38,593 nt of DNA from the IMG/VR virus record IMGVR_UViG_2778261460_000002; one strand, 5' to 3'. The translations under genes were made by a program, and so were the position numbers. This document shows, in pieces, positions 1,137-22,048 of this stretch. The number at the start of each line of letters is the position of its first letter. The stretch's first letter is position 1. Source of the DNA: a virus. Taxonomy: Duplodnaviria; Heunggongvirae; Uroviricota; Caudoviricetes. The notes under the pieces were generated by a model that ran no database searches, was not told the DNA's origin, and saw nothing but the letters and a program-made list of their open reading frames with translations.

Positions 1137-2813
1137 CTAAGCAACATGCAGTTCATCGTTGGCGGAAGTTGCTGCTTTGCGCTCTTGCTCAATCGCCAGT
1201 GACTCTCTATATTCTTTCGCTTCCGCAAACATTGTCCATTGTGCGTTGATGTTCATATCTTCAATAACAGACTTAATTTCTTTAATATTTACGTTGAAAA
1301 ACTCTTTTCGTGAGTTAATTTTATTGACCTGTTTTTCGTTGAAGACTTTATGCAGATGATTTTCTAATGATGGTGCATCATCACTATAAATCATCGCATG
1401 AACATCGAACGAAAAAGGAACACTAGCATCACCGAGTTCACGAACACGATCAAGTGGTTCAAGGCGGCGTGTCATTCCAATTTTATATACATCTTCGCCA
1501 AATGAGCCAATATTACTAATTATATAAACGTGGCCTGATCTAGTTTGTTGAGCCATAGAAATAGCTCGTTGGTTTTTAGCTTCAGCTTCTTCATATTTTA
1601 ACTGTAGTTCAGCTATTTTTTGCTCTAAAGCTAAGCGTTGTTCTTCATTTGCAAGCATAAGCTCTTTTGTTGCTTTATTTATAGCTTGCTGAATAGCTTT
1701 CTCTTCTTTTTCAGCTTCTTTTATCGCTTTTTCATACTCCCTACGAGCTCTTTCCTCTTCACGAAGTTGTTCTTTAATCCTTCTTTGCTCTTCTTTTTCT
1801 TCGAGCATAATTTCATTAACTGCAACTCCCCATTTTAGCTCGTTGAGTCGAGCTTGAAGATAGATGTCACTTATTTTTGCGGACCTAAAGGCAGAACCAT
1901 TGTAATTTACAAGTTGAAACGCATCTTTTATCTCTTGGGAAAGTTTTCCAAAATTGTTGTGTTTGACTTTTGATAAAATACTGTCAACTCTTCCATTGAA
2001 GGCATCTAAAACAAAGTTGATAGCAGTATTACGCCTGTTTTGTTCAACATAATCACACGAAGCAGCTTTATTAGTTTTTATTAATGATTTTGTTAACTCC
2101 CTGGCTTTTTGTAATTCCTTACCTGCATCTGTAAACTCATAATTTTCTGCCAATTCATCGAGAACGCTACGGTTAGGGATGATCCATTCATCACCATAAC
2201 CTTCAATTTTATTTTTCATTGATTTGGCAACTGCTTCATATTTTTCTGCAAACTCTTTAGCTTCATATGCTGAACCAGCAATCTCTTTTGCTCTTTCTTC
2301 TGCATCGGAAATAATTTTCACTGCATTGTCATTAGCATTTGAGATCAGCTCATTTGCTTTACTATTGGCATTATCAAGACGTTCTTTAGCTTTCAGGCGT
2401 GCATCGCGAGCGTCTTTAGTAATTGCTATAGCTTCGCTATTAGCGTTGCTTATTTTTATCTGAGCTTGATAATTTGCTTCGTTTACTGTCTTAGCAGCCT
2501 TTATTTGGGCTTCTTCTATTTTTTGCCTGGCTATTGAGTCTGCATTTTTTATCTTATTCTCTGCTTCCATCACTGCGCTGTGCAATTCTACGTATTGCCA
2601 TAATGGCGCAGCTCGTCCTTCAAGCTCTGATAGATCTCGTACAGTCTGTGCTAATTCTTCTTGATTTTCTTTCAGTTGGTTGGAAAGGGCTATGTTGTTA
2701 GCTGTCAAGGTATTTATAGCCGCTTTATGTTTTTTGCTTTGCTTAAATAATATTACAGCTAGAATGGGGGCGAGAAATGCTAATAAGAATATAACGATGG
2801 AAAATGAATTCAT
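1137..2813 (-). CDS. Membrane-anchored coiled-coil protein with C-terminal T5orf172 (GIY-YIG-like) domain; DUF4041-type architecture; candidate anti-phage/moron gene
   Basis: 558-aa ORF. N-terminal hydrophobic helix (SIVIFLLAFLAPILAVILF), long E/K/A/Q-rich coiled-coil region, C-terminal segment GHVYIISNIGSFGEDVYKIGMTRRLEPLDRVRELG typical of T5orf172. AT-rich relative to the phage backbone. Start codon 20 nt downstream of the cI stop with a GGA Shine-Dalgarno, same strand as cI and int. Confidence 0.7.
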   Translation of the reverse strand: MNSFSIVIFLLAFLAPILAVILFKQSKKHKAAINTLTANNIALSNQLKENQEELAQTVRDLSELEGRAAPLWQYVELHSAVMEAENKIKNADSIARQKIEEAQIKAAKTVNEANYQAQIKISNANSEAIAITKDARDARLKAKERLDNANSKANELISNANDNAVKIISDAEERAKEIAGSAYEAKEFAEKYEAVAKSMKNKIEGYGDEWIIPNRSVLDELAENYEFTDAGKELQKARELTKSLIKTNKAASCDYVEQNRRNTAINFVLDAFNGRVDSILSKVKHNNFGKLSQEIKDAFQLVNYNGSAFRSAKISDIYLQARLNELKWGVAVNEIMLEEKEEQRRIKEQLREEERARREYEKAIKEAEKEEKAIQQAINKATKELMLANEEQRLALEQKIAELQLKYEEAEAKNQRAISMAQQTRSGHVYIISNIGSFGEDVYKIGMTRRLEPLDRVRELGDASVPFSFDVHAMIYSDDAPSLENHLHKVFNEKQVNKINSRKEFFNVNIKEIKSVIEDMNINAQWTMFAEAKEYRESLAIEQERKAATSANDELHVA

Positions 2814-2833: not shown

Positions 2834-3430
2834 TTAATTTGAAACTATTGTACTTCTTATACAAGCAACTACTTCAATATCAGAAAATGCACATTCAAAG
2901 CTATTCTCTGTACTTGTAATTTTAATCATACCTTTTGGAAGCTTTGTGATTTTTCGAATGGAATAGGTTCCGTCGATGTTGATTAACCAGTGCCCATCAA
3001 GTACTTCAGAAAATTTTTGATCACAAATGTATGTGACGAGCCCATCCTGAATAACAATTGGTGATGAAAGATTTGCAGGAAGAAATGATGAATCGAAGAC
3101 ATATGAACCATCTTCAATCATTTTGCCTGCGGTAAGGCGAAACTTGGCAAGCTCTTCTGTAGCTGCTGTCAGCGAGCTTTGCTTAAGGCCTTGCCCGGTG
3201 GTTAACCATTTCAGTGAGGTTCCTGTTTCAAGAGCACATTGGATTATCCAGTCTGCAGGAAACGTATCCCGCAAATACCTGTTCGCCAGAGTGCTTTTTG
3301 ATACTTCCAAGTGATCAGCTAAAGCCTGTCGTGTCGTAAAGCCATAAGCTTCGACTAATCGCTCAATCGCAGCCTTACCACCTTTATTGGGATTTATTTT
3401 GATCTCATTTGGGTACTTTGATGTTGACAT
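2834..3430 (-). CDS. cI: Immunity repressor, phage 186 CI-like
   Basis: 198-aa ORF divergent from the apl/cII lytic operon; N-terminal helix-turn-helix-like region, size and position match 186 CI. Confidence 0.7.
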   Translation of the reverse strand: MSTSKYPNEIKINPNKGGKAAIERLVEAYGFTTRQALADHLEVSKSTLANRYLRDTFPADWIIQCALETGTSLKWLTTGQGLKQSSLTAATEELAKFRLTAGKMIEDGSYVFDSSFLPANLSSPIVIQDGLVTYICDQKFSEVLDGHWLINIDGTYSIRKITKLPKGMIKITSTENSFECAFSDIEVVACIRSTIVSN

Positions 3431-5330: not shown

Positions 5331-6184
5331 GCACCATCTTGAAATGGGCGGGAAATAAAACCGCCGTAATGTCCGAACTGAAAAAACATCTTCCTGCTGG
5401 TCCGCGACTAGTTGAACCTTTCGCGGGTTCCTGTGCTGTGATGATGGAGACGGATTATCCCTGCTATCTGGTTGCGGATATTAATCCTGATTTAATCAAC
5501 CTCTATAAAAAGGTTGCCGCTGATTGTGAATCGTTTATATCTCGCGCCAAAGTTTTATTTGAGATCGCAAACAGGGAGGTGGCTTATTACAACATAAGGC
5601 AGGAGTTTAATTACTCAACTGAAATTACTGATTTCATGAAAGCGGTATATTTCCTGTATCTCAATCGTCACGGTTACCGTGGGTTATGTCGCTATAACAA
5701 GAGCGGGCATTTCAACATTCCCTACGGTAATTATAAAAATCCGTATTTCCCTGAAAAAGAAATTCGCGCTTTTGCAGAAAAAGCCCAGCGAGCAACGTTT
5801 ATCTGCGCCAGCTTTGATGAAACGCTGGCGATGTTGAAGGCGGGGGATGTGGTGTATTGCGATCCGCCTTATGACGGTACGTTTTCCGGCTATCACGCTG
5901 ACGGCTTTACTGAAGATGACCAGTATCACCTGGCATCCGTTCTTGAACATCGGTCATCAGAAGGACATCCGGTCATTGTTTCTAACAGTGACACATCCCT
6001 GATCCGTTCGCTGTATCGCAATTTTACTCACCACTATATCAAGGTAAAACGCAGCATCGGCGTAGCAGCTGGTGAGAGTAAATCAGCAACAGAAATCATT
6101 GCTGTTTCCGGGCCGCGCTGCTGGGTGGGATTTGATTATTCGCGTGGCGTGGATAGTTCTGCCGTGTACGGAGTACGTGCATGA
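5327..6184 (+). CDS. dam: DNA adenine methyltransferase (Dam-like, N6-adenine, probable GATC specificity)
   Basis: 285-aa product from ATG 5327 ([11 protein letters not shown]...); N-terminal AdoMet-binding region (EPFAGSCAV) and catalytic DPPY motif; ATGA overlap with the upstream stop. Confidence 0.75.
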
Positions 6185-8595
6185 GCCATGCCGATATGAG
6201 CAACTGCTGCGGCTTTAACGAGGCTGCCGCATCGTTCTCATGGAACAGTCCGAAAAAGGCCATTAACCCTTATCTGGACCCGGCGGAAGTTGCGCCGGTT
6301 TCTGCGCTTTCAAACCTGATCACTCTGTACGCTGCCGATAACGAGCAGGAACAACTGCGCCGCGAGGCACTGAGTGATCAGGTCTGGGAGCGTTATTTCT
6401 TTAATGAATCCCGTGATCCTGTCCAACGCGAAATAGAGCAGGATAAGCTCATTAGCCGGGCAAAGTTGGCGCATGAGCAGCAGCGTTTTAACCCGGACAT
6501 GGTCATTCTGGCAGACGTCAGCGCCCAGCCCTCCCATATCAGCAAGCCGCTGATGCAACGTATTGAATACTTCAGCAGCCTGGGCAGGCCAAAGGCTTAT
6601 TCCCGCTATTTACGTGAGACGATTAAGCCATGTCTGGAACGACTGGAGCATGTACGCGACAGCCAGCTATCTGCATCTTTTCGTTTTATGGCAAGCCATG
6701 TAGGGCTGGACGGCCTGCTGATTCTGCCTGAAATGAGTCAGGATCAGGTGAAACGCCTGTCTACCCTTGTCGCTGCGCATATGAGCATGTGCCTTGATGC
6801 AGCTTGTGGTGATTTGTATGCCACCGATGACGTTAAGCCAGAAGAAATCCGCAAGACATGGGAAAAGGTGGCAGCGGAAACCCTGCGTCTGGATGTCATC
6901 CCGCCTGCGTTTGAGCAACTCCGTCGGAAAAGAAACCGCCGTAAACCCGTGCCCTATGAACTCATTCCGGGTTCGCTGGCGCGTATGTTGTGCGCCGACT
7001 GGTGGTACCGGAAATTATGGAAAATGCGTTGCGAATGGCGGGAAGAGCAGTTGCGTGCTGTCTGCCTGGTCAGCAAAAAAGCATCTCCCTATGTCAGCTA
7101 TGAAGCCGTGATGCATAAACGTGAGCAGCGCCGCAAGTCACTGGAGTTTTTCCGTTCTCATGAACTGGTGAACGAAGAGGGCGACACGCTGGATATGGAA
7201 GACGTGGTAAACGCCAGCAGCAGCAACCCGGCGCACCGCCGCAATGAGATGATGGCCTGTGTTAAAGGTCTGGAGCTTATCGCGGAAATGCGCGGTGACT
7301 GCGCCGTTTTCTACACCATTACCTGTCCGTCACGTTTCCATTCCACGCTCAATAACGGCAGACCAAACCCAACCTGGACAAATGCGACGGTAAGACAAAG
7401 CAGCGATTATCTGGTCGGCATGTTTGCTGCATTTCGTAAGGCGATGCACAAAGCCGGGTTGCGCTGGTATGGCGTGCGGGTGGCTGAGCCGCATCATGAC
7501 GGTACAGTTCACTGGCACCTGTTGTGTTTCATGCGCAAAAAAGACCGCCGCGCCATTACTGCATTGTTGCGTAAGTTTGCCATCCGTGAAGACCGCGAGG
7601 AACTGGGTAATAACACTGGTCCACGCTTTAAATCTGAGCTGATAAACCCGCGCAAAGGAACGCCGACAAGCTACATCGCGAAATACATCAGTAAGAACAT
7701 TGACGGGCGTGGTCTGGCTGGCGAGATCAGCAAGGAAACGGGTAAATCCCTGCGTGATAACGCTGAATACGTTAATGCCTGGGCGTCTCTGCATCGTGTT
7801 CAGCAATTCCGCTTCTTTGGTATTCCGGGACGTCAGGCTTACCGTGAACTTCGCTTGCTGGCTGGTCAGGCGGCAAGGCAACAGGGTGACAAAAAAGCAG
7901 GTGCGCCGGTACTGGATAACCCGCGTCTTGATGCCATTCTGGCTGCTGCTGATGCTGGTTGTTTTGCCACCTACATCATGAAGCAGGGCGGCGTACTGGT
8001 TCCCCGCAAATATCACCTCATCAGAACCGCTTATGAAATCAACGAAGAGCCAACCGCCTATGGCGATCACGGTATTCGTATTTATGGCATCTGGTCACCC
8101 ATTGCAGAGGGCAAGATCTGCACTCATGCAGTGAAGTGGAAAATGGTTCGTAAGGCCGTTGACGTTCAGGAGGCGGCAGCCGACCAGGGCGCTTGCGCCC
8201 CTTGGACTCGTGGCAATAACTGTCCCCTTGCTGAAAATTTGAACCAACAGGAGAAAGATAAATCAGCTGATGGAGACACCAGAACGGACATTACCCGCAT
8301 GGATGACAAGGAGTTGCACGATTACCTGCACAGTATGAGCAAAAAAGAGCGCCGGGAACTGGCAGCAAGGTTACGCCAGGTGAAGCCGAAAAGGCGTAAA
8401 GACTACAAACAGCGAATTACAGATCATCAGCATCAGCAGCTCGTCTATGAACTGAAGTCCAGAGGATTTGATGGCAGCGAGAAAGAGGTCGATTTACTCC
8501 TTCGCGGTGGCAGTATTCCGTCAGGAGCAGGCCTGCGTATTTTCTATCGGAACCAGCGTTTGCAGGAAGATGATAAGTGGCGGAACCTGTATTAA
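6181..8595 (+). CDS. Replication initiation protein A (P2 gpA / 186 replication endonuclease-like)
   Basis: 804-aa ORF after the early operon; size and position match P2 A; ATGA overlap with dam stop. Confidence 0.8.
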
Positions 8596-8689: not shown

Positions 8690-8705
8690 CTGTAAATATA
8701 AACAG
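8690..8705 (+). promoter_or_regulatory. LexA (SOS) box CTGTAAATATAAACAG
   Basis: Exact match to the CTGT-N8-ACAG LexA operator consensus, about 45 nt upstream of the tum-like start, inside an AT-rich promoter-like region. Confidence 0.7.
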
Positions 8706-8748: not shown

Positions 8749-8937
8749 ATGCAGGACTATTTTTTGGAGTCTTTGAAGCTCCAGCGCATTGATTTTTTTC
8801 TTAAGCTTGTAGCGGCTAGTGAGTGTAGTGATGAAGAGAAGGGGCTGGCTCTGCAGTGGGTTTCTGAATTGACTGATGAACTCATGGCAAAAATCAGAAG
8901 CCACGAATACAACCGCTCAATGGATGTCATCAGCTGA
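8749..8937 (+). CDS. Small SOS-regulated protein, candidate Tum-like antirepressor
   Basis: 62-aa product from ATG 8749 with AGGAGG RBS (8739-8744); directly downstream of the LexA box; position matches the 186 tum locus. Confidence 0.45.
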   Translation: MQDYFLESLKLQRIDFFLKLVAASECSDEEKGLALQWVSELTDELMAKIRSHEYNRSMDVIS

Positions 8938-8947
8938 GGTGACTTTT

Positions 8948-9181
8948 ATGCGCATTGAAATAATGATCGATAAAGAGCAGAAGATTAGCCAGTCTACCCT
9001 GGACGCTCTGGAGTCCGAGCTTTACCGCAACCTGCAACCCATCTATCCCAAGACAGCTATCCGCATCCGTAAAGGGTCGGCAAACGGCGTTGAGCTGAGT
9101 GGCTTAAAGCTTGATGAAGACAAAAAGCGGGTGATGGAAATTATGCAGCAGGTTTGGGAAGACGACAGATGGCTGCACTAA
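8948..9181 (+). CDS. DinI-family protein
   Basis: 77-aa product MRIEIMIDKEQK...IMQQVWEDDRWLH aligns by eye with E. coli DinI (MRIEVTIAK ... ILQETWE ... W); second gene in the LexA-boxed operon. Confidence 0.65.
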   Translation: MRIEIMIDKEQKISQSTLDALESELYRNLQPIYPKTAIRIRKGSANGVELSGLKLDEDKKRVMEIMQQVWEDDRWLH

Positions 9182-9254: not shown

Positions 9255-9515
9255 ATGGGTAAAAAAGACAGTAATCACCAGATTATTTATCGGGGCCAGG
9301 TGCTGGAACGGTTTACCCCTGGCGGCTGGGTCTTCTTTCAACGCCCAAAGGAGTGTGGCGGAGGTTTTTAGTTGGGCCGCACCTATGAAGACTGCTTCTG
9401 GCTTGAGCTGGAATTCCCCGTTTCGCTATATGACGGCCTGGAGTTTTTGATGGAAGTCACCAGGGTAGAGCAGAGAAGTGATGAGGTTGACGCGAATTAT
9501 TCCCTGTTTGATTAA
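9255..9515 (+). pseudogene. Small ORF interrupted by an in-frame amber codon (TAG at 9369-9371); probable pseudogene
   Basis: ATG at 9255 opens 38 codons, TAG, then the same frame stays open for 47 more codons to TAA at 9513-9515. Confidence 0.3.
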
Positions 9516-9534
9516 AAATGTATTAGCTTATAAT
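9507..9534 (+). promoter_or_regulatory. Putative sigma70 promoter for the 203-aa gene (-35 TTTGAT/TTGATT, -10 TATAAT at 9529-9534)
   Basis: Perfect -10 hexamer with a plausible -35 at 15-16 bp spacing, about 30 nt upstream of the ATG at 9564. Confidence 0.4.
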
Positions 9535-9563
9535 GGAATACTATTTTTGCAGGTGGGGGCGCA

Positions 9564-10175
9564 ATGGATTTAGTCTTTAAAATTCTGGCTTCGTTGGGTG
9601 GGGTGTCTTTTGTTGCATCTGGCATATTTGTTTGGATCGGGAAAGTTTATTTAGAAAGATATAAGTCGCGGCTAAACAAAGATATTGCTGAATTTCAATC
9701 ACAACTGAGTGCAACTAATGAAAGAATAAAGGCTAAGTTAGACAATTCTGTTTATGTAACGAAAGCGTATTTTGATAAGGAGTTATCAGCATATAGTCTC
9801 ATTTGGAATTCGATGTTTGAAACCAGAGAAAGCGTGCTTAAGCTGAGGCCTGCGCTGGATCATTTTGACCCCAACGAACCATTTGAAGAGAGAAAATTTA
9901 GAAGGTTGAAAGTTTTTTTCGATGCATTTAATACTTTTGTTACAAGTGTTGAGTCTAACAAACCGTTCATCTCACCAGAGGTTTATATAATCTTGGACCG
10001 TTTCCGGAAGGAATGCCTTTCAGAGTCAATATCGTTTCAGCATGGCGATCCAGAATTTGACTGGCAAAATTATTGGAAAGAGGCAGAGTTGAACCGTACA
10101 ACCATCACCAAGCTTTTTGATGAGACGTGTGATGCAATTCGAGACAGGATGCACACATTAACTGTGGTTACGTAG
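9564..10175 (+). CDS. Single-pass membrane protein of unknown function; accessory cargo in the old/tin-equivalent position
   Basis: 203-aa ORF with N-terminal hydrophobic helix (ILASLGGVSFVASGIFVWIG) and a soluble domain with no recognisable motifs; AT-rich; own promoter and terminator. Confidence 0.6.
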   Translation: MDLVFKILASLGGVSFVASGIFVWIGKVYLERYKSRLNKDIAEFQSQLSATNERIKAKLDNSVYVTKAYFDKELSAYSLIWNSMFETRESVLKLRPALDHFDPNEPFEERKFRRLKVFFDAFNTFVTSVESNKPFISPEVYIILDRFRKECLSESISFQHGDPEFDWQNYWKEAELNRTTITKLFDETCDAIRDRMHTLTVVT

Positions 10176-10266
10176 TTTTCCAAAAAGTCTCGATGCCCGC
10201 TTTGGCGATTGTGCATGTCTATGCCGCATGAATCCGCATGATCGTTTGAGGATCGTTTTAGCTGAG

Positions 10267-10290
10267 GCCCGCTAGGAATGGCGGGCTTTT
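10267..10290 (+). terminator. Rho-independent terminator (gcccgc-loop-gcgggc-tttt)
   Basis: Perfect 6-bp GC stem with 8-nt loop followed by TTTT, about 90 nt downstream of the 203-aa gene. Confidence 0.55.
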
Positions 10291-10335
10291 GCTTATGTCA
10301 TGCAGGCGCATGAAAACCACTACATAAAGCGGGCA

Positions 10336-10354
10336 GGCGTGGCGGGGATACGAG
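10336..10354. other. Probable cos site (cohesive-end region) GGCGTGGCGGGGATACGAG
   Basis: Matches from memory the start of the P2/186 cohesive end (GGCG[A/T]GGCGGGGA...), with a GCGCGCT tract after it as in P2; lies between the replication side and the portal gene. Not verified by alignment. Confidence 0.45.
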
Positions 10355-10367
10355 CGCGCGCTCATGG

Positions 10368-10396
10368 TTGAATTAATGAAATTATGGTGTTAAATA
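10368..10396 (+). promoter_or_regulatory. Putative sigma70 promoter for the 232-aa gene: -35 TTGAAT (10368-10373), 17-bp spacer, extended -10 TGtTAAATA (10388-10396)
   Basis: Read directly from the sequence; about 70 nt upstream of the ATG at 10465, which has a GGGAGGAG RBS. Confidence 0.45.
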
Positions 10397-10464
10397 GGCT
10401 AGCTTTTTAAGTCGTGAATATTCAATTTTTCAACTCATTTTTTTCATAGGGAGGAGTAATTGAC

Positions 10465-11163
10465 ATGGTTATGTTAGTGGATGACTGTCCACGATGTGGA
10501 TCACAAAAAATAGCGTTTGATGTTAATGGGCTGAATTGCACTAGGGTTTACAATGCATTGGGCGGGGGTAAAACATACGAGTACGAGGTCTATTGTGTTT
10601 GCCGAGAGTGTCATAAAACGACAATGTTTCTTTGCAGACCTTTAACGAAAAATAAAACTTTAGATGGCTATAATTGGAAAAGTGGAATATTCGGCTTAAA
10701 GGAAGTTGCAGAGGTTGTTAGGCCTATATCACCGGCAGACTTAGCAGTAGAGGAGCCACCAGAGTTCTTACCTGAGCATATCAATAGTGCATATGAGGAA
10801 GGGGCGAAATGTTTGGCTATAGGTTGTTATAATGCAGCAGCAACCATGTTTAGGCTTTGCCTTGATTATGCCACAAAAGGACTTCTTCCTGATGGGGAGC
10901 AAGGGCCTGCGCAAAAAATAAGGAGAAGCCTAGGGTTAAGAATGGAGTGGTTATTTGATAATCATCTACTGCCTGAAGCTTTAAGGGAACTAGCTGAATG
11001 CGTTAAAGATGACGGAAATGATGGAGCGCATGAAGGTATTTTGGATAAAGCTGCTGCTGAGGATCTTGAAGATTTTACCTATCTTTTTTTAGAACGGCTT
11101 TACACTGAACCTCAACGCCTTATCGAAGCCAAGACAAGGCGTGAACAAAGAAGAAACAAATAA
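10465..11163 (+). CDS. Zinc-ribbon protein with DUF4145/HEPN-like C-terminal domain; accessory cargo between cos and the portal gene
   Basis: 232-aa ORF; N-terminal CPRC-x35-CRECH Cys cluster; C-terminal helical region with GNDGAHEG resembling the RN..AHG motif of DUF4145 as recalled (arginine replaced). AT-rich, own promoter. Confidence 0.55.
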   Translation: MVMLVDDCPRCGSQKIAFDVNGLNCTRVYNALGGGKTYEYEVYCVCRECHKTTMFLCRPLTKNKTLDGYNWKSGIFGLKEVAEVVRPISPADLAVEEPPEFLPEHINSAYEEGAKCLAIGCYNAAATMFRLCLDYATKGLLPDGEQGPAQKIRRSLGLRMEWLFDNHLLPEALRELAECVKDDGNDGAHEGILDKAAAEDLEDFTYLFLERLYTEPQRLIEAKTRREQRRNK

Positions 11164-11171
11164 GTTCGGAA

Positions 11172-12209
11172 TTATTCTTCTGAAAGAATATAGGGCGTAA
11201 ATTTAATCACTTCTTCGCCCAGCCAGTCGTTCAGCTCTTGTAGCCTTTTTTGCAAGGGCGTTAATTCATTACGTACAAATACGCGACTGGCCTTCTCCAC
11301 ATCCCCAAATCCCCCAACATTATTAGGCATTATCCCCATCATTTGTGGCGGTACACGGTGCGCAGCCATCATGTCATCGCGGCTGACATTTTTGATATTC
11401 AGAAACTCATCCTTCGCCGCGACTTCTGACAGAGGAATGATCTGAAGGCCGTCCTTTTTGCCGTTCGGCGAGTACATAAACAGGTTACGGAAATTGCCAG
11501 GTCCTTTGGCGCTTTTCATCGCATTACGGAGGTTGTTTACATCCTCCTGGTTCTGCGCGGCGTCGGTCATGTACATGATGAAGCCTGCGTGGCTGCCGTT
11601 AATGTAATACTTGCGGCGGAACAGCGTGGCGGACTCGTTGAGTAGGGCTGACGGAATGGCAGAAAGATAACCGGGCAGGCCGTAGATCTCCTGGTTGATA
11701 TCCGGTTCCATCAGGTGAAAAATGCTGCCTTTCGTGAACTGATACGGTTGCGTGGTCATGCCGTATTGCACAAACCAGTAGGTATCCAGGTCTAATCCGC
11801 GTCGGGTGTATTTTGCCAGGGCAGGTTCAAGGGCGATAACTTCACCGAAGCGGTTCGTGCGTTTCTCCAGGTAGGCGTTACCAAAAACCAGATAGTCCTG
11901 CACAAAACGCGAAAAAGCCTGCTGGCTGAGCAGCGGGTGAGGGATGTAGGTGCTGGTCAGAATGTTGCACTTTACTGCAATCGGGGAACTATGATGCACG
12001 GCAGCGCGGAAGGTGCGCGCCAGTCCGTCAAAGCTGACGGGCGGCTCATACCAGCGGTCCATCTGTACGCATTCCACATAATCCAGCAGTTCTCGGCGGT
12101 CCAGAACAGGAACGGGATCGCCGAAGCTGAATGCTTCGGCTGTAGTTTGACTTTTAAGCTGGATCTGTTTCGTCGCCGCAGCGCGGTTCTTCTTACTCTT
12201 TCCCATCAA
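11172..12209 (-). CDS. Portal protein (P2 gpQ-like)
   Basis: 345-aa ORF adjacent to and overlapping the terminase gene start; first gene after cos as in P2. Confidence 0.8.
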   Translation of the reverse strand: MMGKSKKNRAAATKQIQLKSQTTAEAFSFGDPVPVLDRRELLDYVECVQMDRWYEPPVSFDGLARTFRAAVHHSSPIAVKCNILTSTYIPHPLLSQQAFSRFVQDYLVFGNAYLEKRTNRFGEVIALEPALAKYTRRGLDLDTYWFVQYGMTTQPYQFTKGSIFHLMEPDINQEIYGLPGYLSAIPSALLNESATLFRRKYYINGSHAGFIMYMTDAAQNQEDVNNLRNAMKSAKGPGNFRNLFMYSPNGKKDGLQIIPLSEVAAKDEFLNIKNVSRDDMMAAHRVPPQMMGIMPNNVGGFGDVEKASRVFVRNELTPLQKRLQELNDWLGEEVIKFTPYILSEE

Positions 12210-19944: not shown

Positions 19945-20796
19945 TTATTTCATTTCGTGTGGCATATTTATGGCTTTAATTTTTTCGTGGTAATGATTAA
20001 ACTCAATATGAGCATTGGTAAAATTAGATTCAAATGTATTCATTAAATTGGAATATAATGATTCATATGATAAGGATACTTTTTTTCCATTTTTTTCTGC
20101 AGTTGTGCTAATGTACCTATGTACTGCAGAAAAAAGAAAATGACCTCTAAGCCACTTTCTGTATTCTATCGATTTTGATTTGAAAGATGAATCGATGTTA
20201 TCTGGTTCCACACCTAATTTTTCAATGATGGTGTTTTTGTAACTCGTGATTTTTTGCTCGCAAATTTCATTTGATTTTCTAGATTTCATGAAACGATCTG
20301 CACTGTCACCAATAACTGAAATGCCTTTTCTATAAATATGATTGTATATATCAAGTTTTATTAGGGGTTCCATTTTGGTATAAAAGTCTTCTGTCCAAGA
20401 ATCGACGTTGACATCGTTCATTATCTTTTGAGGTAATTTTCCGAGAGTTTTTATTGCCTTATATATGCCTGTTTTGTCAATAAACGTGTTTTCGATGGAG
20501 TGCCCATAAGTTTTTACAATGCGACTATCAGCGTTTTCCTCATTTTCAAATGTAGTGAAGTCTGCATCACATGCAATTATAATTTGAAGATCTTCATCAG
20601 TAACTCTATCAATATATTTTTTTAATTCTTCACAGCCGCCAACATCTTTGATTTCAACCTTTAATGAACTAGCTTTATTAAAGATGATTTCCCAAAAGCA
20701 AATATCATCTGGGCCTTCAACATAAACCATGGCTTCAGCTTGGTAAAATAAATTCATTACATTTTCTGCTTCGGCAGAATAATGGAAATCATCCAT
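19945..20796 (-). CDS. DUF4435/Toprim-like nuclease, PARIS AriB-like (OLD-family Toprim fold)
   Basis: Open frame extends to 20880 (311 aa). The ATG at 20796 overlaps the upstream stop as ATGGATGA, so 283 aa is more likely. Toprim-like acidic motifs YVEGPDD and IIACDADF. Very AT-rich. Confidence 0.55.
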   Translation of the reverse strand: MDDFHYSAEAENVMNLFYQAEAMVYVEGPDDICFWEIIFNKASSLKVEIKDVGGCEELKKYIDRVTDEDLQIIIACDADFTTFENEENADSRIVKTYGHSIENTFIDKTGIYKAIKTLGKLPQKIMNDVNVDSWTEDFYTKMEPLIKLDIYNHIYRKGISVIGDSADRFMKSRKSNEICEQKITSYKNTIIEKLGVEPDNIDSSFKSKSIEYRKWLRGHFLFSAVHRYISTTAEKNGKKVSLSYESLYSNLMNTFESNFTNAHIEFNHYHEKIKAINMPHEMK

Positions 20797-22048
20797 GAAC
20801 CAATTTCTCCATATCAAAGATTGCATTTCGATATTTAGAAGCCACTTCTGGTGAATGCGTAGCGGCGATAATTTGCGCATTAGGATTAAGTTGTTTGATT
20901 GCAGGTATTATTTTTCGTTGCCATGCAATATGTAGCGATAATTCTGGTTCATCAGTAAGATAGATGAAAGGTTTGTTTTGCTGTAGCAAAGTTTCAATAA
21001 AAAGAATTAATAGCTGTTTTTCACCAGACGATAAATTACTATGGCTAATCGGCCCATGCTCGTTTTCTATTACTAGCTCACCGGAGATAAAATTAAATTT
21101 TTTATCGGTTATGAACTCATGTAATGTTTCTAAAAATAGATTTATAGGAAGAAATATGTTTTTTATTTTCTCCTCGGATTTTAAAGACATCTTTATAATT
21201 CTTTGCGTCTTTCGTAATGCCTCAAATGATCTGTAATCTACATTTAAAATATTTCTGTTATTTTTTTCTGCAAGTCGTAATTCTTCAAATGTTTTGGCAA
21301 TAGATTCAACGTGAAAGTTAATCTTCTTTCTGACATCACTATCAAAAGCTCCAAGCTGAGAATATGCAGCTATTAAATTTCTACGTTCTTTTTCTTTATC
21401 AAAAGAAAAGTTAAATGTGTCATCGATACCATCTTCTTTACTATAAAGAATAGAAGCAAGAACCTCTTTCTGTAATATTGCAGAAACATCACGAGCTCTT
21501 TGTGATAAATAAAGTTGATATTTTGTTAGGTTCTGCAATAATTGTTCTAATCGGTAATCAACAGGGTTGATTAATTTTGAGCCATATTTGTCTCTGATTT
21601 CAAAATCTTCACCGCTTCTAAGTCGGTAAACTGATAGAGAAGATAAAGCAACTAATTTATCTAACTCTAATTTAAGTTTTTCAACGTCTTCCTGATATTT
21701 TCTCCTCATATAAATAGGTAGTCTACGATCTTCAAAGGATCTGATAATATATTTCTTTCTAGAAATTGTATATTCAAACGTAGGCAAAGCTTTAGTTATG
21801 TCAAATTTACTCACAACTTTTATTGTTTTAGTTTTGCTTCCTTCTTTTATTTTTATTGTTACATTATCAAAACTATTCTCATTTAGTGATTCGAGTTCTA
21901 ATGCCAGAACTGAGTGAAGAATATTCATAAAGGTTGTTTTACCGGTCCCATTTCGACCAATAATAATATTTACATCTTCATTAAATGAACATGATGCATT
22001 TAGTCTTCCCCAAAAACCTTCAATCTTGACACTAGATAATCTAAACAT
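20789..22048 (-). CDS. ABC-type ATPase (AAA_15/AAA_21-like), PARIS AriA-like
   Basis: 419 aa; Walker A GRNGTGKTT, Walker B-like IYLTDEPE, H-loop AATHSPEV; translationally coupled to the downstream DUF4435 gene. Confidence 0.6.
   Translation of the reverse strand: MFRLSSVKIEGFWGRLNASCSFNEDVNIIIGRNGTGKTTFMNILHSVLALELESLNENSFDNVTIKIKEGSKTKTIKVVSKFDITKALPTFEYTISRKKYIIRSFEDRRLPIYMRRKYQEDVEKLKLELDKLVALSSLSVYRLRSGEDFEIRDKYGSKLINPVDYRLEQLLQNLTKYQLYLSQRARDVSAILQKEVLASILYSKEDGIDDTFNFSFDKEKERRNLIAAYSQLGAFDSDVRKKINFHVESIAKTFEELRLAEKNNRNILNVDYRSFEALRKTQRIIKMSLKSEEKIKNIFLPINLFLETLHEFITDKKFNFISGELVIENEHGPISHSNLSSGEKQLLILFIETLLQQNKPFIYLTDEPELSLHIAWQRKIIPAIKQLNPNAQIIAATHSPEVASKYRNAIFDMEKLVHG

What the first reader, a model, noticed from the sequence alone, without database searches (positions are those of the whole stretch)
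9564..10175. Unrecognised 203-aa single-TM protein in the old/tin-equivalent hotspot
P2-type phages carry variable anti-phage cargo (old, tin and others) between the replication gene and cos. That position here holds an AT-rich monocistronic gene with its own sigma70-like promoter (perfect TATAAT) and a strong terminator, encoding a protein with one N-terminal TM helix and a soluble domain in which I recognise no known motif. Small membrane-anchored single-gene systems are a common form of abortive-infection effector, so this is a good candidate for an undescribed defence or superinfection-exclusion gene.
Basis: partly seen in the sequence, partly recalled or inferred. Interest (0 to 1): 0.72.

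Follow-up and report, generated by a model that had tools for sequence, protein, structure and literature searches.

The report
Uncharacterised membrane-anchored prophage cargo protein
A real, expressed gene of an E. coli P2-like prophage encodes a membrane-anchored four-helix-bundle protein from a large family with no known function; the family rides on phages and other mobile elements, so it is a credible but untested and already catalogued candidate for a new anti-phage gene.

Summary
ORF 9564-10175(+) is intact and AT-rich (38.6% vs 50% GC). It has a conserved TATAAT promoter block, one N-terminal TM helix and no match in Pfam, NCBIfam, PADLOC or PDB.

The window is a relative of prophage Cartapus of E. 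coli LF82, and the gene is Cartapus gp47/LF82_789. Published RNA-seq shows it transcribed in the lysogen independently of its upstream neighbours and about 30-fold higher in macrophages than in LB.

- **Family:** it belongs to at least 921 protein clusters across several phyla, almost all about 200 aa.
- **Structure:** the model (pLDDT 94) shows a TM helix, a stalk and a four-helix bundle predicted to be cytoplasmic. Only generic helical bundles resemble it.
- **Context:** homologues are stand-alone genes in prophages, satellites, integrative elements and defence islands, under purifying selection (dN/dS about 0.12).
- **In P2-like phages:** it fills the dinI-cos slot. It assorts independently of the hypervariable defence slot beyond cos, which here holds a DUF4145 gene.

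Defence or exclusion is the best guess (about 0.45) but unproven. The gene is not a new sighting: Rousset et al. 2022 list it as untested P2-hotspot system #39 ('1 TM'), and Misson et al. 2023 list it as a moron. The terminator belongs to the conserved cos backbone, not to the gene cassette.

The parts
9508..9534 (+). Promoter block: -35 TTGATT (9508-9513), 15-bp spacer, -10 TATAAT (9529-9534)
   Evidence: Read from the sequence. The block is identical in seven P2-like loci, whereas the degraded cryptic copy has TATAAC. LF82 RNA-seq shows expression independent of the upstream genes. The consensus scan did not call it because the spacer is 15 bp.
9551..9556 (+). Shine-Dalgarno AGGTGG, 7 nt before the ATG
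   Evidence: Read from the sequence.
9564..10175 (+). CDS of 203 aa. It equals Cartapus gp47 / LF82_789 / WP_000366628 and belongs to PHROG 26391.
   Evidence: dN/dS is about 0.12 against the Enterobacter-type alleles. The exact protein is seen on 976 public contigs, all labelled hypothetical.
9582..9641 (+). Transmembrane helix (residues 7-26), containing the L11-G12-G13 motif that is invariant among the closer relatives (alignments A1 and A3) and a 'GG' majority consensus in the 67-member family alignment
   Evidence: Kyte-Doolittle score 2.02. Of 67 family members, 63 have an equivalent helix. Flanking K+R average 0.37 on the N side and 3.55 on the C side, which predicts N-out/C-in topology. 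L11, G12 and G13 are invariant in the closer-relative alignments; the 67-member consensus keeps LxxxGG as majority residues but these columns fall below 75% there. TM conservation is comparable to that of the bundle helices.
9642..9746 (+). Juxtamembrane basic region and stalk helix (residues 27-61); stalk length varies across the family
   Evidence: Structure model. Longer homologues differ mainly by stalk insertions.
9759..10157 (+). Four-helix bundle (residues 66-198), clasped by a beta bridge between residues 63-65 and 199-201. Invariant residues are E73, P134, E154 and R195; near-invariant are F70, W81, L94, R95, P96, F135, I192 and R193.
10264..10294 (+). Intrinsic terminator hairpin plus U-tract; a backbone element shared by P2-like phages
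   Evidence: deltaG -22.9 kcal/mol, z = -4.08. It lies within the block conserved in loci that lack the gene.
10304..10362 (.). cos site (context), which separates the gene's slot from the cos-to-portal cargo slot
   Evidence: Annotated in the Cartapus record at positions 1-59 and mapped to the window by BLAST. Recombination breakpoints lie at about 10207-10213 and 10360-10386.
9255..9515 (+). 86-aa ORF that travels with the gene in P2-like loci (context). In this window it is broken by a TGG-to-TAG change at 9370.
   Evidence: It is poorly expressed in LF82 and has no family match.
10465..11163 (+). Neighbouring DUF4145 gene in the cos-to-portal slot (context). It is a separate, independently assorting module.
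   Evidence: Pfam DUF4145 E = 4.5e-7; weak PADLOC PD-T7-4 match E = 1.2e-6. Independent assortment in E. coli genomes.

Best explanation
**What it is (shown).** The ORF is a genuine accessory (moron) gene of a P2-like prophage. It is transcribed in the lysogen from its own conserved promoter.

**The protein (shown or predicted).** It is a bitopic inner-membrane protein with four parts:
- a very short periplasmic N-terminus;
- a conserved glycine-containing TM helix;
- a basic juxtamembrane segment followed by a stalk helix;
- a four-helix bundle closed by a small beta clasp, predicted to face the cytoplasm.

**The family (shown).** It is the E. coli representative of a large, phylogenetically broad and uncharacterised family (PHROG 26391; at least 921 clusters at 50% identity). 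Members almost always occur as single genes in temperate phages, satellites, integrative elements and defence islands.

**Most likely role (inferred, not shown).** It is a stand-alone phage-exclusion factor that benefits the lysogen.
- The cytoplasmic bundle would recognise an infection-specific cue, probably a phage protein.
- This would change the association of the TM and stalk helices in the inner membrane.
- The membrane would then be permeabilised or depolarised, aborting the infection.
- A block of genome entry at the membrane is the close alternative.
For: **Identity and expression**
- The gene is 100% identical to LF82 Cartapus gp47.
- In Misson et al. 2023 (PMC9928086, S1 Table) LF82_789 is 7-fold above the prophage background in LB. 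Its log2 fpkm rises from 5.5 in LB to 7.2-8.6 in DMEM and 9.0-10.5 in macrophages.
- The gene just upstream stays at 2.6-3.6 in DMEM.
- The promoter block is conserved.

**Selection**
- dN/dS is about 0.12 at dS of about 0.8.
- dN is 0 among alleles that differ at up to dS 0.1.

**Accessory status**
- The gene is in 52 of 5,426 complete E. coli genomes, against about 1,279 that carry the P2-type cos block.
- The dinI-cos slot is empty or holds other genes in related phages.

**Family and structure**
- 921 clusters match at E <= 1e-3 and 386 at E <= 1e-10, nearly all full length at 190-225 aa.
- The model has pLDDT 94.4.
- Positive-inside counts favour a cytoplasmic C-terminal domain in 66 of 67 members.
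- The TM is as conserved as the bundle helices, and its L11-G12-G13 motif is invariant among the closer relatives.
- More distant relatives keep the N-terminal TM/juxtamembrane module while the C-terminal region diverges.

**Context**
- In P2-like prophages it sits beside retron, OLD-like, AAA_21+RloB, Schlafen-like, KAP NTPase, DprA-PRTase and DUF4145 cargo.
- It lies beside a type IIG RM and Abi_alpha.
- It lies next to the integrases of small satellite-like elements.
- It lies beside HigBA, resolvases, HNH-WYL, ArdC and Mrr.
- It lies near cI in Pseudomonas phage Riah.
- No partner gene is conserved across the family.
- The same prophage carries PARIS and PD-Lambda-1 in its other hotspots.
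Against: - No experiment links this gene or any homologue to phage resistance or toxicity.
- Rousset et al. catalogued it but did not test it.
- There is no sequence or fold relationship to any characterised defence, Abi or exclusion protein.
- The soluble domain has no buried hydrophobic hairpin, so any membrane damage would have to come from a single TM helix per subunit.
- In Enterobacter-type P2-like prophages the protein stays identical while the neighbouring slot swaps cargo. It therefore turns over more slowly than typical hotspot defence genes.
- A few homologues lie in apparently ordinary chromosomal neighbourhoods, for example directly after pheT in L009.
- Strong induction in DMEM and macrophages would also fit a host-physiology role.
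Confidence: 0.45

Rival explanations
1. It is a superinfection-exclusion protein that blocks genome entry at the inner membrane, like T4 Imm, P22 SieA or HK97 gp15, without harming the cell.
For: It is an inner-membrane protein expressed from a prophage during lysogeny. It occupies moron positions near cI or int in other temperate elements.
Against: Only about six residues are predicted to face the periplasm, and the conserved bulk faces the cytoplasm. The family spans Proteobacteria, Bacteroidota, Bdellovibrionota and Firmicutes elements. From my own knowledge, known Sie proteins form narrow families tied to particular phage groups. No PHROG with a Sie annotation matches.
Confidence: 0.15
2. 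It is a lysogenic-conversion or host-fitness factor, for example a membrane or stress adaptation factor useful inside macrophages or in poor media, with no anti-phage role.
For: Expression is about 30-fold higher in macrophages than in LB and is already raised in DMEM. This makes it one of the most expressed Cartapus genes there, above the CI repressor. The host is an adherent-invasive E. coli.
Against: Homologues are common in soil, freshwater and other environmental bacteria and their mobile elements, so a macrophage-specific function cannot explain the family. The neighbouring prophage genes rise in macrophages too. An SOS box lies upstream at 8690-8705, so part of the induction may be a general stress response.
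Confidence: 0.2
3. It is one half of a two-gene system with the adjacent DUF4145 protein, acting as sensor plus membrane effector.
For: A DUF4145 gene lies next to the gene here (10465-11163) and directly upstream of a 34%-identical homologue in a Burkholderiales MAG. Both genes rise together in DMEM and macrophages. They co-occur in 25 of the 52 E. coli genomes that carry the gene.
Against: The two genes are separated by a strong terminator and by cos. About 27 of those 52 genomes pair the gene with other downstream cargo, of which at least 16 are listed. At least 15 listed genomes have this DUF4145 gene without it, with breakpoints on either side of the cos block. The identical protein sits beside five different cargoes. 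The two DUF4145 proteins share only the domain. Gene order is reversed in the MAG.
Confidence: 0.08
4. It serves the phage's own life cycle, for example modulation of lysis timing, DNA packaging or lysogeny maintenance.
For: It lies next to cos. A homologue sits between terS and terL in Clostridium phage Maintenon.
Against: It is absent from most P2-like phages, including P2 itself. It is expressed in the lysogen while the lytic genes are silent. It also occurs in non-phage islands and in satellites. The prophage has its own holin, endolysin and spanin elsewhere.
Confidence: 0.07

Closest known systems
P2 hotspot cargo (tin, old and the systems of Rousset et al. 2022, e.g. DUF4238, 3HP, DprA-PRTase)
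   Same: It occupies the same gpA-to-Q accessory region of a P2-like prophage and is AT-rich like them. It is expressed in lysogeny and was catalogued by the same survey as system #39, '1 TM'.
   Different: It has no homology to any of those systems and was never tested. It sits in the dinI-cos sub-slot, and within the Enterobacter-type lineage it is kept while the cos-Q sub-slot swaps.
Defence effectors built as an N-terminal TM helix plus a cytoplasmic sensor domain. Examples are the type III CRISPR accessory protein Cam1 (my own knowledge) and the 1-TM partner of the P4 RT-nitrilase system (Rousset 2022 Table S2A).
   Same: The architecture is the same: a short N-terminus, one TM helix, a helical linker and a cytoplasmic globular domain of about 130-200 residues.
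   Different: hhalign against the RT-nitrilase 1-TM protein gives probability 1%. There is no CARF or other nucleotide-binding domain, and no signal-generating partner gene. It stands alone.
Four-helix-bundle sensor domains of chemoreceptors and histidine kinases (Tar/Tsr, TorS, PcaY, Adeh_2942)
   Different: Sequence identity is 3-12%, and Foldseek E-values are 0.03 or worse, with none at or below 1e-3. Talin, FAT domains and de novo designed bundles score equally well, so the match is generic. Those sensors are periplasmic and flanked by two TM helices. This bundle is predicted to be cytoplasmic and has a single TM helix. There is no Pfam 4HB_MCP hit.
Membrane morons and exclusion proteins of temperate phages (P4 Gop, lambda RexB, P22 SieA, T4 Imm; my own knowledge)
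   Same: It is a prophage-borne, lysogeny-expressed inner-membrane protein in an accessory slot.
   Different: No sequence relationship was detected through PHROGs or PADLOC. It has one TM helix rather than two to four, a large conserved cytoplasmic domain, and a far wider taxonomic spread.

Membership tests
Known anti-phage defence protein families (PADLOC-DB 2.0, which includes models named Old-type, PARIS, PD-T4/T7/Lambda and PDC candidates) | A significant profile match to a model of a described or candidate defence protein | tested here: not met
   The window protein has zero hits. Among 67 family members there are only scattered single hits at E >= 1e-4 to unrelated coiled-coil-rich models.
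P2 hotspot accessory cargo (gpA-to-Q region) | The gene lies between the replication gene A and the portal gene Q of a P2-like prophage, and its presence varies among relatives. | tested here: met
   gpA is at 6181-8595 and Q at 11172-12209. The slot is empty or differently filled in related phages. The gene is present in 52 of 5,426 genomes. It is listed in Rousset 2022 Tables S5A and S5B.
Prophage moron | The gene is transcribed autonomously in the lysogen while the surrounding lytic genes are silent. | tested here: met
   This rests on published RNA-seq for the identical gene in LF82. It is 7-fold above the prophage median in LB and about 60-fold above the upstream gene in DMEM, while gpA stays at background. 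It was not measured for this window's own strain.
Anti-phage defence or abortive-infection system (functional class) | It reduces phage plating or burst, or causes infection-dependent cell death or growth arrest. | not testable with these tools
   This needs plaque and infection assays. Neither the literature search nor the Rousset tested-systems table holds a test of this protein.
4HB_MCP / chemoreceptor-type four-helix-bundle sensor domain | A periplasmic bundle between two TM helices, with a Pfam 4HB_MCP-type sequence signature | tested here: not met
   There is no Pfam match. The protein has a single TM helix, and positive-inside counts place the bundle in the cytoplasm. The structural similarity is generic.
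Holin or antiholin | A small membrane protein encoded in the lysis cassette, next to the endolysin and spanin, and expressed late | tested here: not met
   The Cartapus holin, endolysin and spanin are gp09-gp11, far from this locus. This gene is expressed in lysogeny. There is no holin Pfam or PHROG match.
Valyl-tRNA synthetase (the name some RefSeq records give this protein) | A class I aminoacyl-tRNA synthetase catalytic core | tested here: not met
   The only match is a sub-threshold hit to the coiled-coil tRNA-binding arm: PF10458, 16.7 bits against a cut-off of 25.9. The name is an annotation artefact.

The most novel reading that the evidence does not exclude
PHROG 26391 would be a previously unrecognised, widespread family of single-gene anti-phage immunity proteins. 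In this reading a conserved single-pass TM and juxtamembrane module acts as a membrane-disrupting effector, fused directly to a cytoplasmic four-helix-bundle sensor. The gene is carried by temperate phages, satellites and integrative elements across several bacterial phyla. In LF82 it would be switched on during intracellular stress.
Probability: 0.3. Interest if true: 0.7.

Novelty: new variant of a known kind. Interest (0 to 1): 0.5.

Why it matters
- **A tractable candidate.** If the family proves to be defensive, it would add a compact single-gene, membrane-anchored system of about 200 aa. It would bring a new sensor fold and hundreds of natural variants to the known immune repertoire.
- **An unexplained hotspot entry.** It would account for one of the more frequent unexplained entries of the P2 hotspot: system #39, found in 103 loci.
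- **Hotspot architecture.** The locus shows that the P2 gpA-Q hotspot is really two slots that recombine independently on either side of a conserved terminator+cos block. This is useful when delimiting candidate systems.
- **Relevance to LF82.** The strong induction of this block inside macrophages links prophage cargo expression to the intracellular lifestyle of an adherent-invasive E. coli.
- **If it is not defensive.** It would still be a large, well-folded family of mobile-element proteins with no assigned role.

Tried and rejected
**Sequence-profile searches found nothing informative.**
- Pfam, PADLOC, NCBIfam and PHROGs gave no functional match for the window protein or for 67 diverse homologues. 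The only hits were coiled-coil noise and PHROG 26391, which has unknown function.
- PDB sequence searches, by single sequence and by profile, found nothing.

**Fold searches gave only generic helical bundles.**
- The AFDB library was not available.

**Specific leads tested by profile-profile comparison were all rejected.**
- The 1-TM partner of the P4 RT-nitrilase system: probability 1%.
- A DUF4760 protein seen in a related locus: 2%.
- HP1 orf1, which had been a weak BFVD hit: 0.2%.

**A conserved partner gene was sought and not found.**
- All-against-all BLASTP of 23 neighbouring ORFs from 15 loci found a single related pair, within one sub-lineage.
- Neighbours had no shared Pfam family.

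**The DUF4145 pairing was considered and rejected as obligatory**.

**Other dead ends.**
- The search for related loci with the 67-sequence alignment failed because no stretch was conserved enough. An 11-sequence alignment worked.
- Literature searches by accession and by architecture keywords found no characterisation.
- The supplement of the LF82 CRISPRi preprint holds no entry for this gene.
Full report
**1. What the window is**

The region matches Escherichia phage Cartapus at 99.2% over 1.7 kb. Cartapus is the P2-like prophage of the adherent-invasive E. coli LF82 (NC_070909, Peduoviridae).

The 612-bp ORF is 100% identical to LF82 locus LF82_RS13710 / WP_000366628, which is Cartapus gp47 and is annotated 'hypothetical protein'.

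The gene order across the region is as follows:

| Feature | Coordinates |
|---|---|
| gpA | 6181-8595 |
| 62-aa ORF | 8749-8937 |
| dinI | 8948-9181 |
| 86-aa ORF | 9255-9515 |
| Target | 9564-10175 |
| Terminator | 10264-10294 |
| cos | about 10304-10362 |
| DUF4145 gene | 10465-11163 |
| Portal Q | 11172-12209, minus strand |

**2. The observation**

- **ORF and composition.** The ORF encodes 203 aa. Its GC content is 38.6%, against 50.0% for the window.
- **TM helix.** There is one N-terminal hydrophobic helix, with a Kyte-Doolittle score of 2.02 for residues 7-25, and nothing comparable elsewhere in the protein.
- **Promoter.** A perfect TATAAT lies at 9529-9534 and an AGGTGG ribosome-binding site 7 nt before the ATG. 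The best -35 (TTGATT) is only 15 bp upstream, which is why the consensus scan did not report a promoter.
- **Promoter conservation.** The TTGATT-15-TATAAT block is identical in seven P2-like loci from E. coli and from Enterobacter-type hosts whose coding sequence differs by up to 17%. In a degraded cryptic copy it reads TATAAC.
- **Terminator.** The downstream hairpin is strong: -22.9 kcal/mol, z = -4.1, followed by a U-tract.

One correction is needed. The hairpin and cos form a block of about 135 bp that is conserved in P2-like phages with other cargo or with none. The terminator therefore belongs to the phage backbone rather than to this gene cassette.

**3. Expression (published data for the identical gene)**

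Misson et al. 2023 (PMC9928086) list LF82_789 as one of two Cartapus morons. It is 7-fold above the prophage background in LB.

Their S1 Table gives the coordinates 2759532-2760143, which are exactly those of the gene. The log2 fpkm values are:

| Gene | LB | DMEM | Macrophages |
|---|---|---|---|
| Target (LF82_789) | 5.4-5.6 | 7.1-8.6 | 9.0-10.5 |
| 86-aa gene just upstream | about 3.1-3.3 | 2.6-3.6 | 4.9-7.7 |
| gpA | background | background | background |

This supports autonomous, condition-responsive transcription in the lysogen.

A perfect LexA box (CTGTAAATATAAACAG, 8690-8705) precedes the 62-aa ORF and dinI. It probably explains why the upstream genes rise in macrophages. It cannot explain the target's much higher level.

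**4. The protein and its family**

No library recognises the protein. Pfam, PADLOC, NCBIfam and PDB sequences give nothing significant, and PHROGs gives only PHROG 26391, of unknown function.

Some RefSeq records name it 'valyl-tRNA synthetase'. That name comes from a sub-threshold coiled-coil hit (PF10458, 16.7 bits against a cut-off of 25.9) and is an artefact.

- **Close relatives.** Homologues at 67-96% identity occur in Escherichia, Enterobacter and Citrobacter.
- **Wider family.** A profile search of 1.84 billion representative proteins found 921 clusters at E <= 1e-3 and 386 at E <= 1e-10. Almost all are 190-225 aa and match over their full length.
- **Conserved residues.** In a 67-member alignment with 25-83% identity to the query, E73, P134, E154 and R195 are invariant. 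F70, W81, L94, R95, P96, F135, I192 and R193 are nearly so.
- **Family searches.** None of the 67 members hits a known family. All 67 hit PHROG 26391.

With this alignment AlphaFold2 gives a confident model: mean pLDDT 94.4, with all five models at or above 92.
- One long helix (residues 2-61) contains the TM segment and a stalk.
- An up-down four-helix bundle follows (residues 67-92, 107-131, 138-160, 167-198).
- A two-stranded beta bridge between residues 63-65 and the C-terminal 199-201 closes the bundle.

Basic residues flanking the TM helix average 0.37 on the N side and 3.55 on the C side, and the C side is richer in 66 of 67 members. By the positive-inside rule the bundle is cytoplasmic, and only a few residues face the periplasm.

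The TM helix is about as conserved as the bundle helices, and its L11-G12-G13 motif is invariant among the closer relatives. More distant relatives keep the N-terminal '...GG...LSSWLGKVWAxRI...' module while the C-terminal part diverges. Longer members mainly have longer stalks.

Fold comparison was not informative.
- Foldseek found nothing at E <= 1e-3 in PDB or BFVD.

**5. Selection**

Between the E. coli and Enterobacter-type alleles, dN/dS is 0.11-0.14 at dS of about 0.7-0.9. Among Enterobacter-type alleles dN is 0 while dS reaches 0.1. The protein is therefore under purifying selection.

About 91%-identical copies carrying indels lie in two cryptic islands, in E. coli 550 and E. coli 2015C-3121. 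They sit beside an integrase fragment, a cos remnant and DprA (with a phosphoribosyltransferase gene still annotated in strain 550). These look like decayed remnants of a P2 hotspot.

**6. What occupies this position elsewhere**

The gpA-Q hotspot splits into two slots around the conserved terminator+cos block.

*The dinI-cos slot* varies among relatives:

| Phage or locus | Content of the dinI-cos slot |
|---|---|
| vB_EcoM-813R9 | empty |
| ST15-OXA48phi14.1 | 72-aa and 280-aa ORFs |
| ST11-OXA245phi3.1 | 225-aa ORF |
| Cartapus-like and Enterobacter-type prophages | 86-aa ORF plus the target |

*The cos-Q slot*, next to the very same 203-aa protein (P0002, an identical sequence in five loci), holds five different cargoes:
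- a hypothetical gene;
- an STM3845+RT retron;
- an OLD-like ATPase-TOPRIM;
- AAA_21+RloB;
- a Schlafen/HATPase protein.

An E. coli locus has a P-loop NTPase there instead.

In complete E. coli genomes the counts are as follows:
- 52 carry the target.
- 25 carry the target together with this DUF4145 gene.
- At least 16 listed genomes carry the target with other downstream DNA.
- At least 15 listed genomes carry this DUF4145 gene without the target.
- Homology breaks at about 10207-10213 and about 10360-10386.

The two genes are therefore separate modules.

About 1,279 genomes carry the cos block, so the target is present in roughly 4% of them. Rousset et al. 2022 counted it in 103 of 18,150 P2 loci.

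**7. Context of distant homologues**

| Identity to query | Locus or element | Neighbourhood |
|---|---|---|
| 43-48% | Small satellite-like elements (one in Kosakonia; one on a metagenome contig, inserted in a lambdoid terminase gene) | Directly after the integrase |
| 30% | L019 | Type IIG RM and Abi_alpha |
| 22-29% | Various islands | Integrases, resolvases, HigBA, HNH-WYL, Prim-Pol, ArdC, Mrr |
| 34% | Burkholderiales MAG (L008) | Directly after a DUF4145 gene |
| 26.5% | Pseudomonas phage Riah | Near cI |
| 25.5% | Clostridium phage Maintenon | Between terS and terL |
| 23.6% | PICI-like element on a Lactiplantibacillus plasmid | Next to the integrase |

Two or three loci look like ordinary chromosomal neighbourhoods (L006, L009).

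No neighbouring gene is shared across the family. The only related pair of neighbours belongs to one sub-lineage.

**8. Interpretation**

*Shown.* The gene is real, expressed and selectively maintained. It is a stand-alone accessory gene of mobile elements, and it encodes a bitopic membrane protein with a well-defined helical-bundle domain.

*Inferred.* A role in phage exclusion is inferred from four lines of evidence:
- its position in the hotspot;
- its expression in lysogeny;
- its distribution on mobile elements and in defence islands;
- its resemblance in architecture, though not in sequence, to defence effectors that join one TM helix to a cytoplasmic sensor.

The TM module stays conserved while the cytoplasmic domain diverges. 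I therefore favour a model in which the bundle senses a phage product and the TM and stalk helices reorganise to compromise the inner membrane. I put 'some anti-phage role' at about 0.45 and this particular mechanism at about 0.25.

The rivals are:
- an entry block at the membrane;
- a host-fitness role, given the induction in DMEM and macrophages;
- a two-gene system with DUF4145, which the independent assortment argues against;
- a phage life-cycle role, which the gene's sporadic presence and lysogenic expression argue against.

**9. Novelty**

The gene is not a new sighting. Rousset et al. 2022 list this locus in Table S5A, and in Table S5B they list a near-identical allele of the protein (two residue differences) as system #39, '1 TM', 103 loci. 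It is absent from their tables of tested systems. Misson et al. 2023 list it as a moron.

This analysis adds:
- the size and breadth of the family;
- the confident structure and the predicted topology;
- the evidence that it stands alone and is under selection;
- the two-slot anatomy of the hotspot;
- the independence from DUF4145.

The function remains unknown. If the protein is defensive, it would be a new family within a known kind: single-protein, membrane-anchored exclusion.

Noticed in passing
window 19945-22048 (-): A PARIS system sits in a 29-34% GC island at the tail (Z/fun) hotspot. AriA (AAA_15/AAA_21) is at 20789-22048 and AriB (DUF4435) at 19945-20880. Cartapus of LF82 has a different, smaller gene there, so this prophage is a relative of Cartapus rather than Cartapus itself.
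   Followed up: partly
window 1137-2813 (-): A PD-Lambda-1 defence protein (DUF4041 + T5orf172/MUG113; PADLOC E = 5e-120) lies between the integrase (1-1053) and the CI repressor (2834-3430), in an AT-rich stretch.
   Followed up: partly
window 10465-11163 (+): A DUF4145 protein of 232 aa occupies the cos-to-portal slot and has a weak match to PADLOC PD-T7-4 (E = 1.2e-6). It is expressed in the LF82 lysogen and induced in macrophages (log2 4.7 rising to 9.6). It assorts independently of the target gene.
   Followed up: partly
L008 9111-9812 and 9965-10612: In a Burkholderiales MAG a DUF4145 gene lies directly upstream of a 34%-identical homologue of the target. This echoes the adjacency seen in the window, but the two DUF4145 proteins share only the domain. 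It could reflect defence-island co-location or a loose functional link.
   Followed up: partly
window 8690-8705: A perfect LexA (SOS) box, CTGTAAATATAAACAG, lies upstream of the 62-aa ORF and the dinI homologue. This fits their strong induction in macrophages in the LF82 data.
   Followed up: no
window 9255-9515 (position 9370): The 86-aa ORF that accompanies the target in P2-like loci carries a TGG-to-TAG nonsense change relative to LF82. It is a pseudogene here, while the target is intact.
   Followed up: yes
window 10230-10365: A block of about 135 bp (terminator hairpin plus cos) is conserved at 88-96% in all P2-like loci examined, and matches to it account for most of the about 1,279 E. 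coli genomes hit by the wider 9564-11163 query. Cargo recombination breakpoints lie immediately on both sides of it.
   Followed up: yes
L030 and L032 (E. coli 550 and E. coli 2015C-3121): These cryptic islands hold a degraded copy of the target (about 91% identity, with indels), an integrase fragment, a cos remnant and DprA; the phosphoribosyltransferase partner of the DprA-PRTase system is still annotated in strain 550 but not in 2015C-3121. They appear to be fossilised P2 hotspots.
   Followed up: partly
L021 and L022 (metagenome contigs), L003 (Kosakonia): A small integrase-bearing element carries a 43-48%-identical homologue right after its integrase. The element also encodes AAA_25 and DUF4222 proteins and, in L021, a protease-capsid fusion. 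In L021 and L022 it is inserted into the large-terminase gene of a lambdoid prophage, splitting GpA_ATPase from GpA_nuclease.
   Followed up: no
RefSeq records, e.g. NZ_CP025862.1 3302764-3303375: Several genomes annotate this protein as 'valyl-tRNA synthetase'. The error propagates from a sub-threshold coiled-coil match to PF10458.
   Followed up: yes
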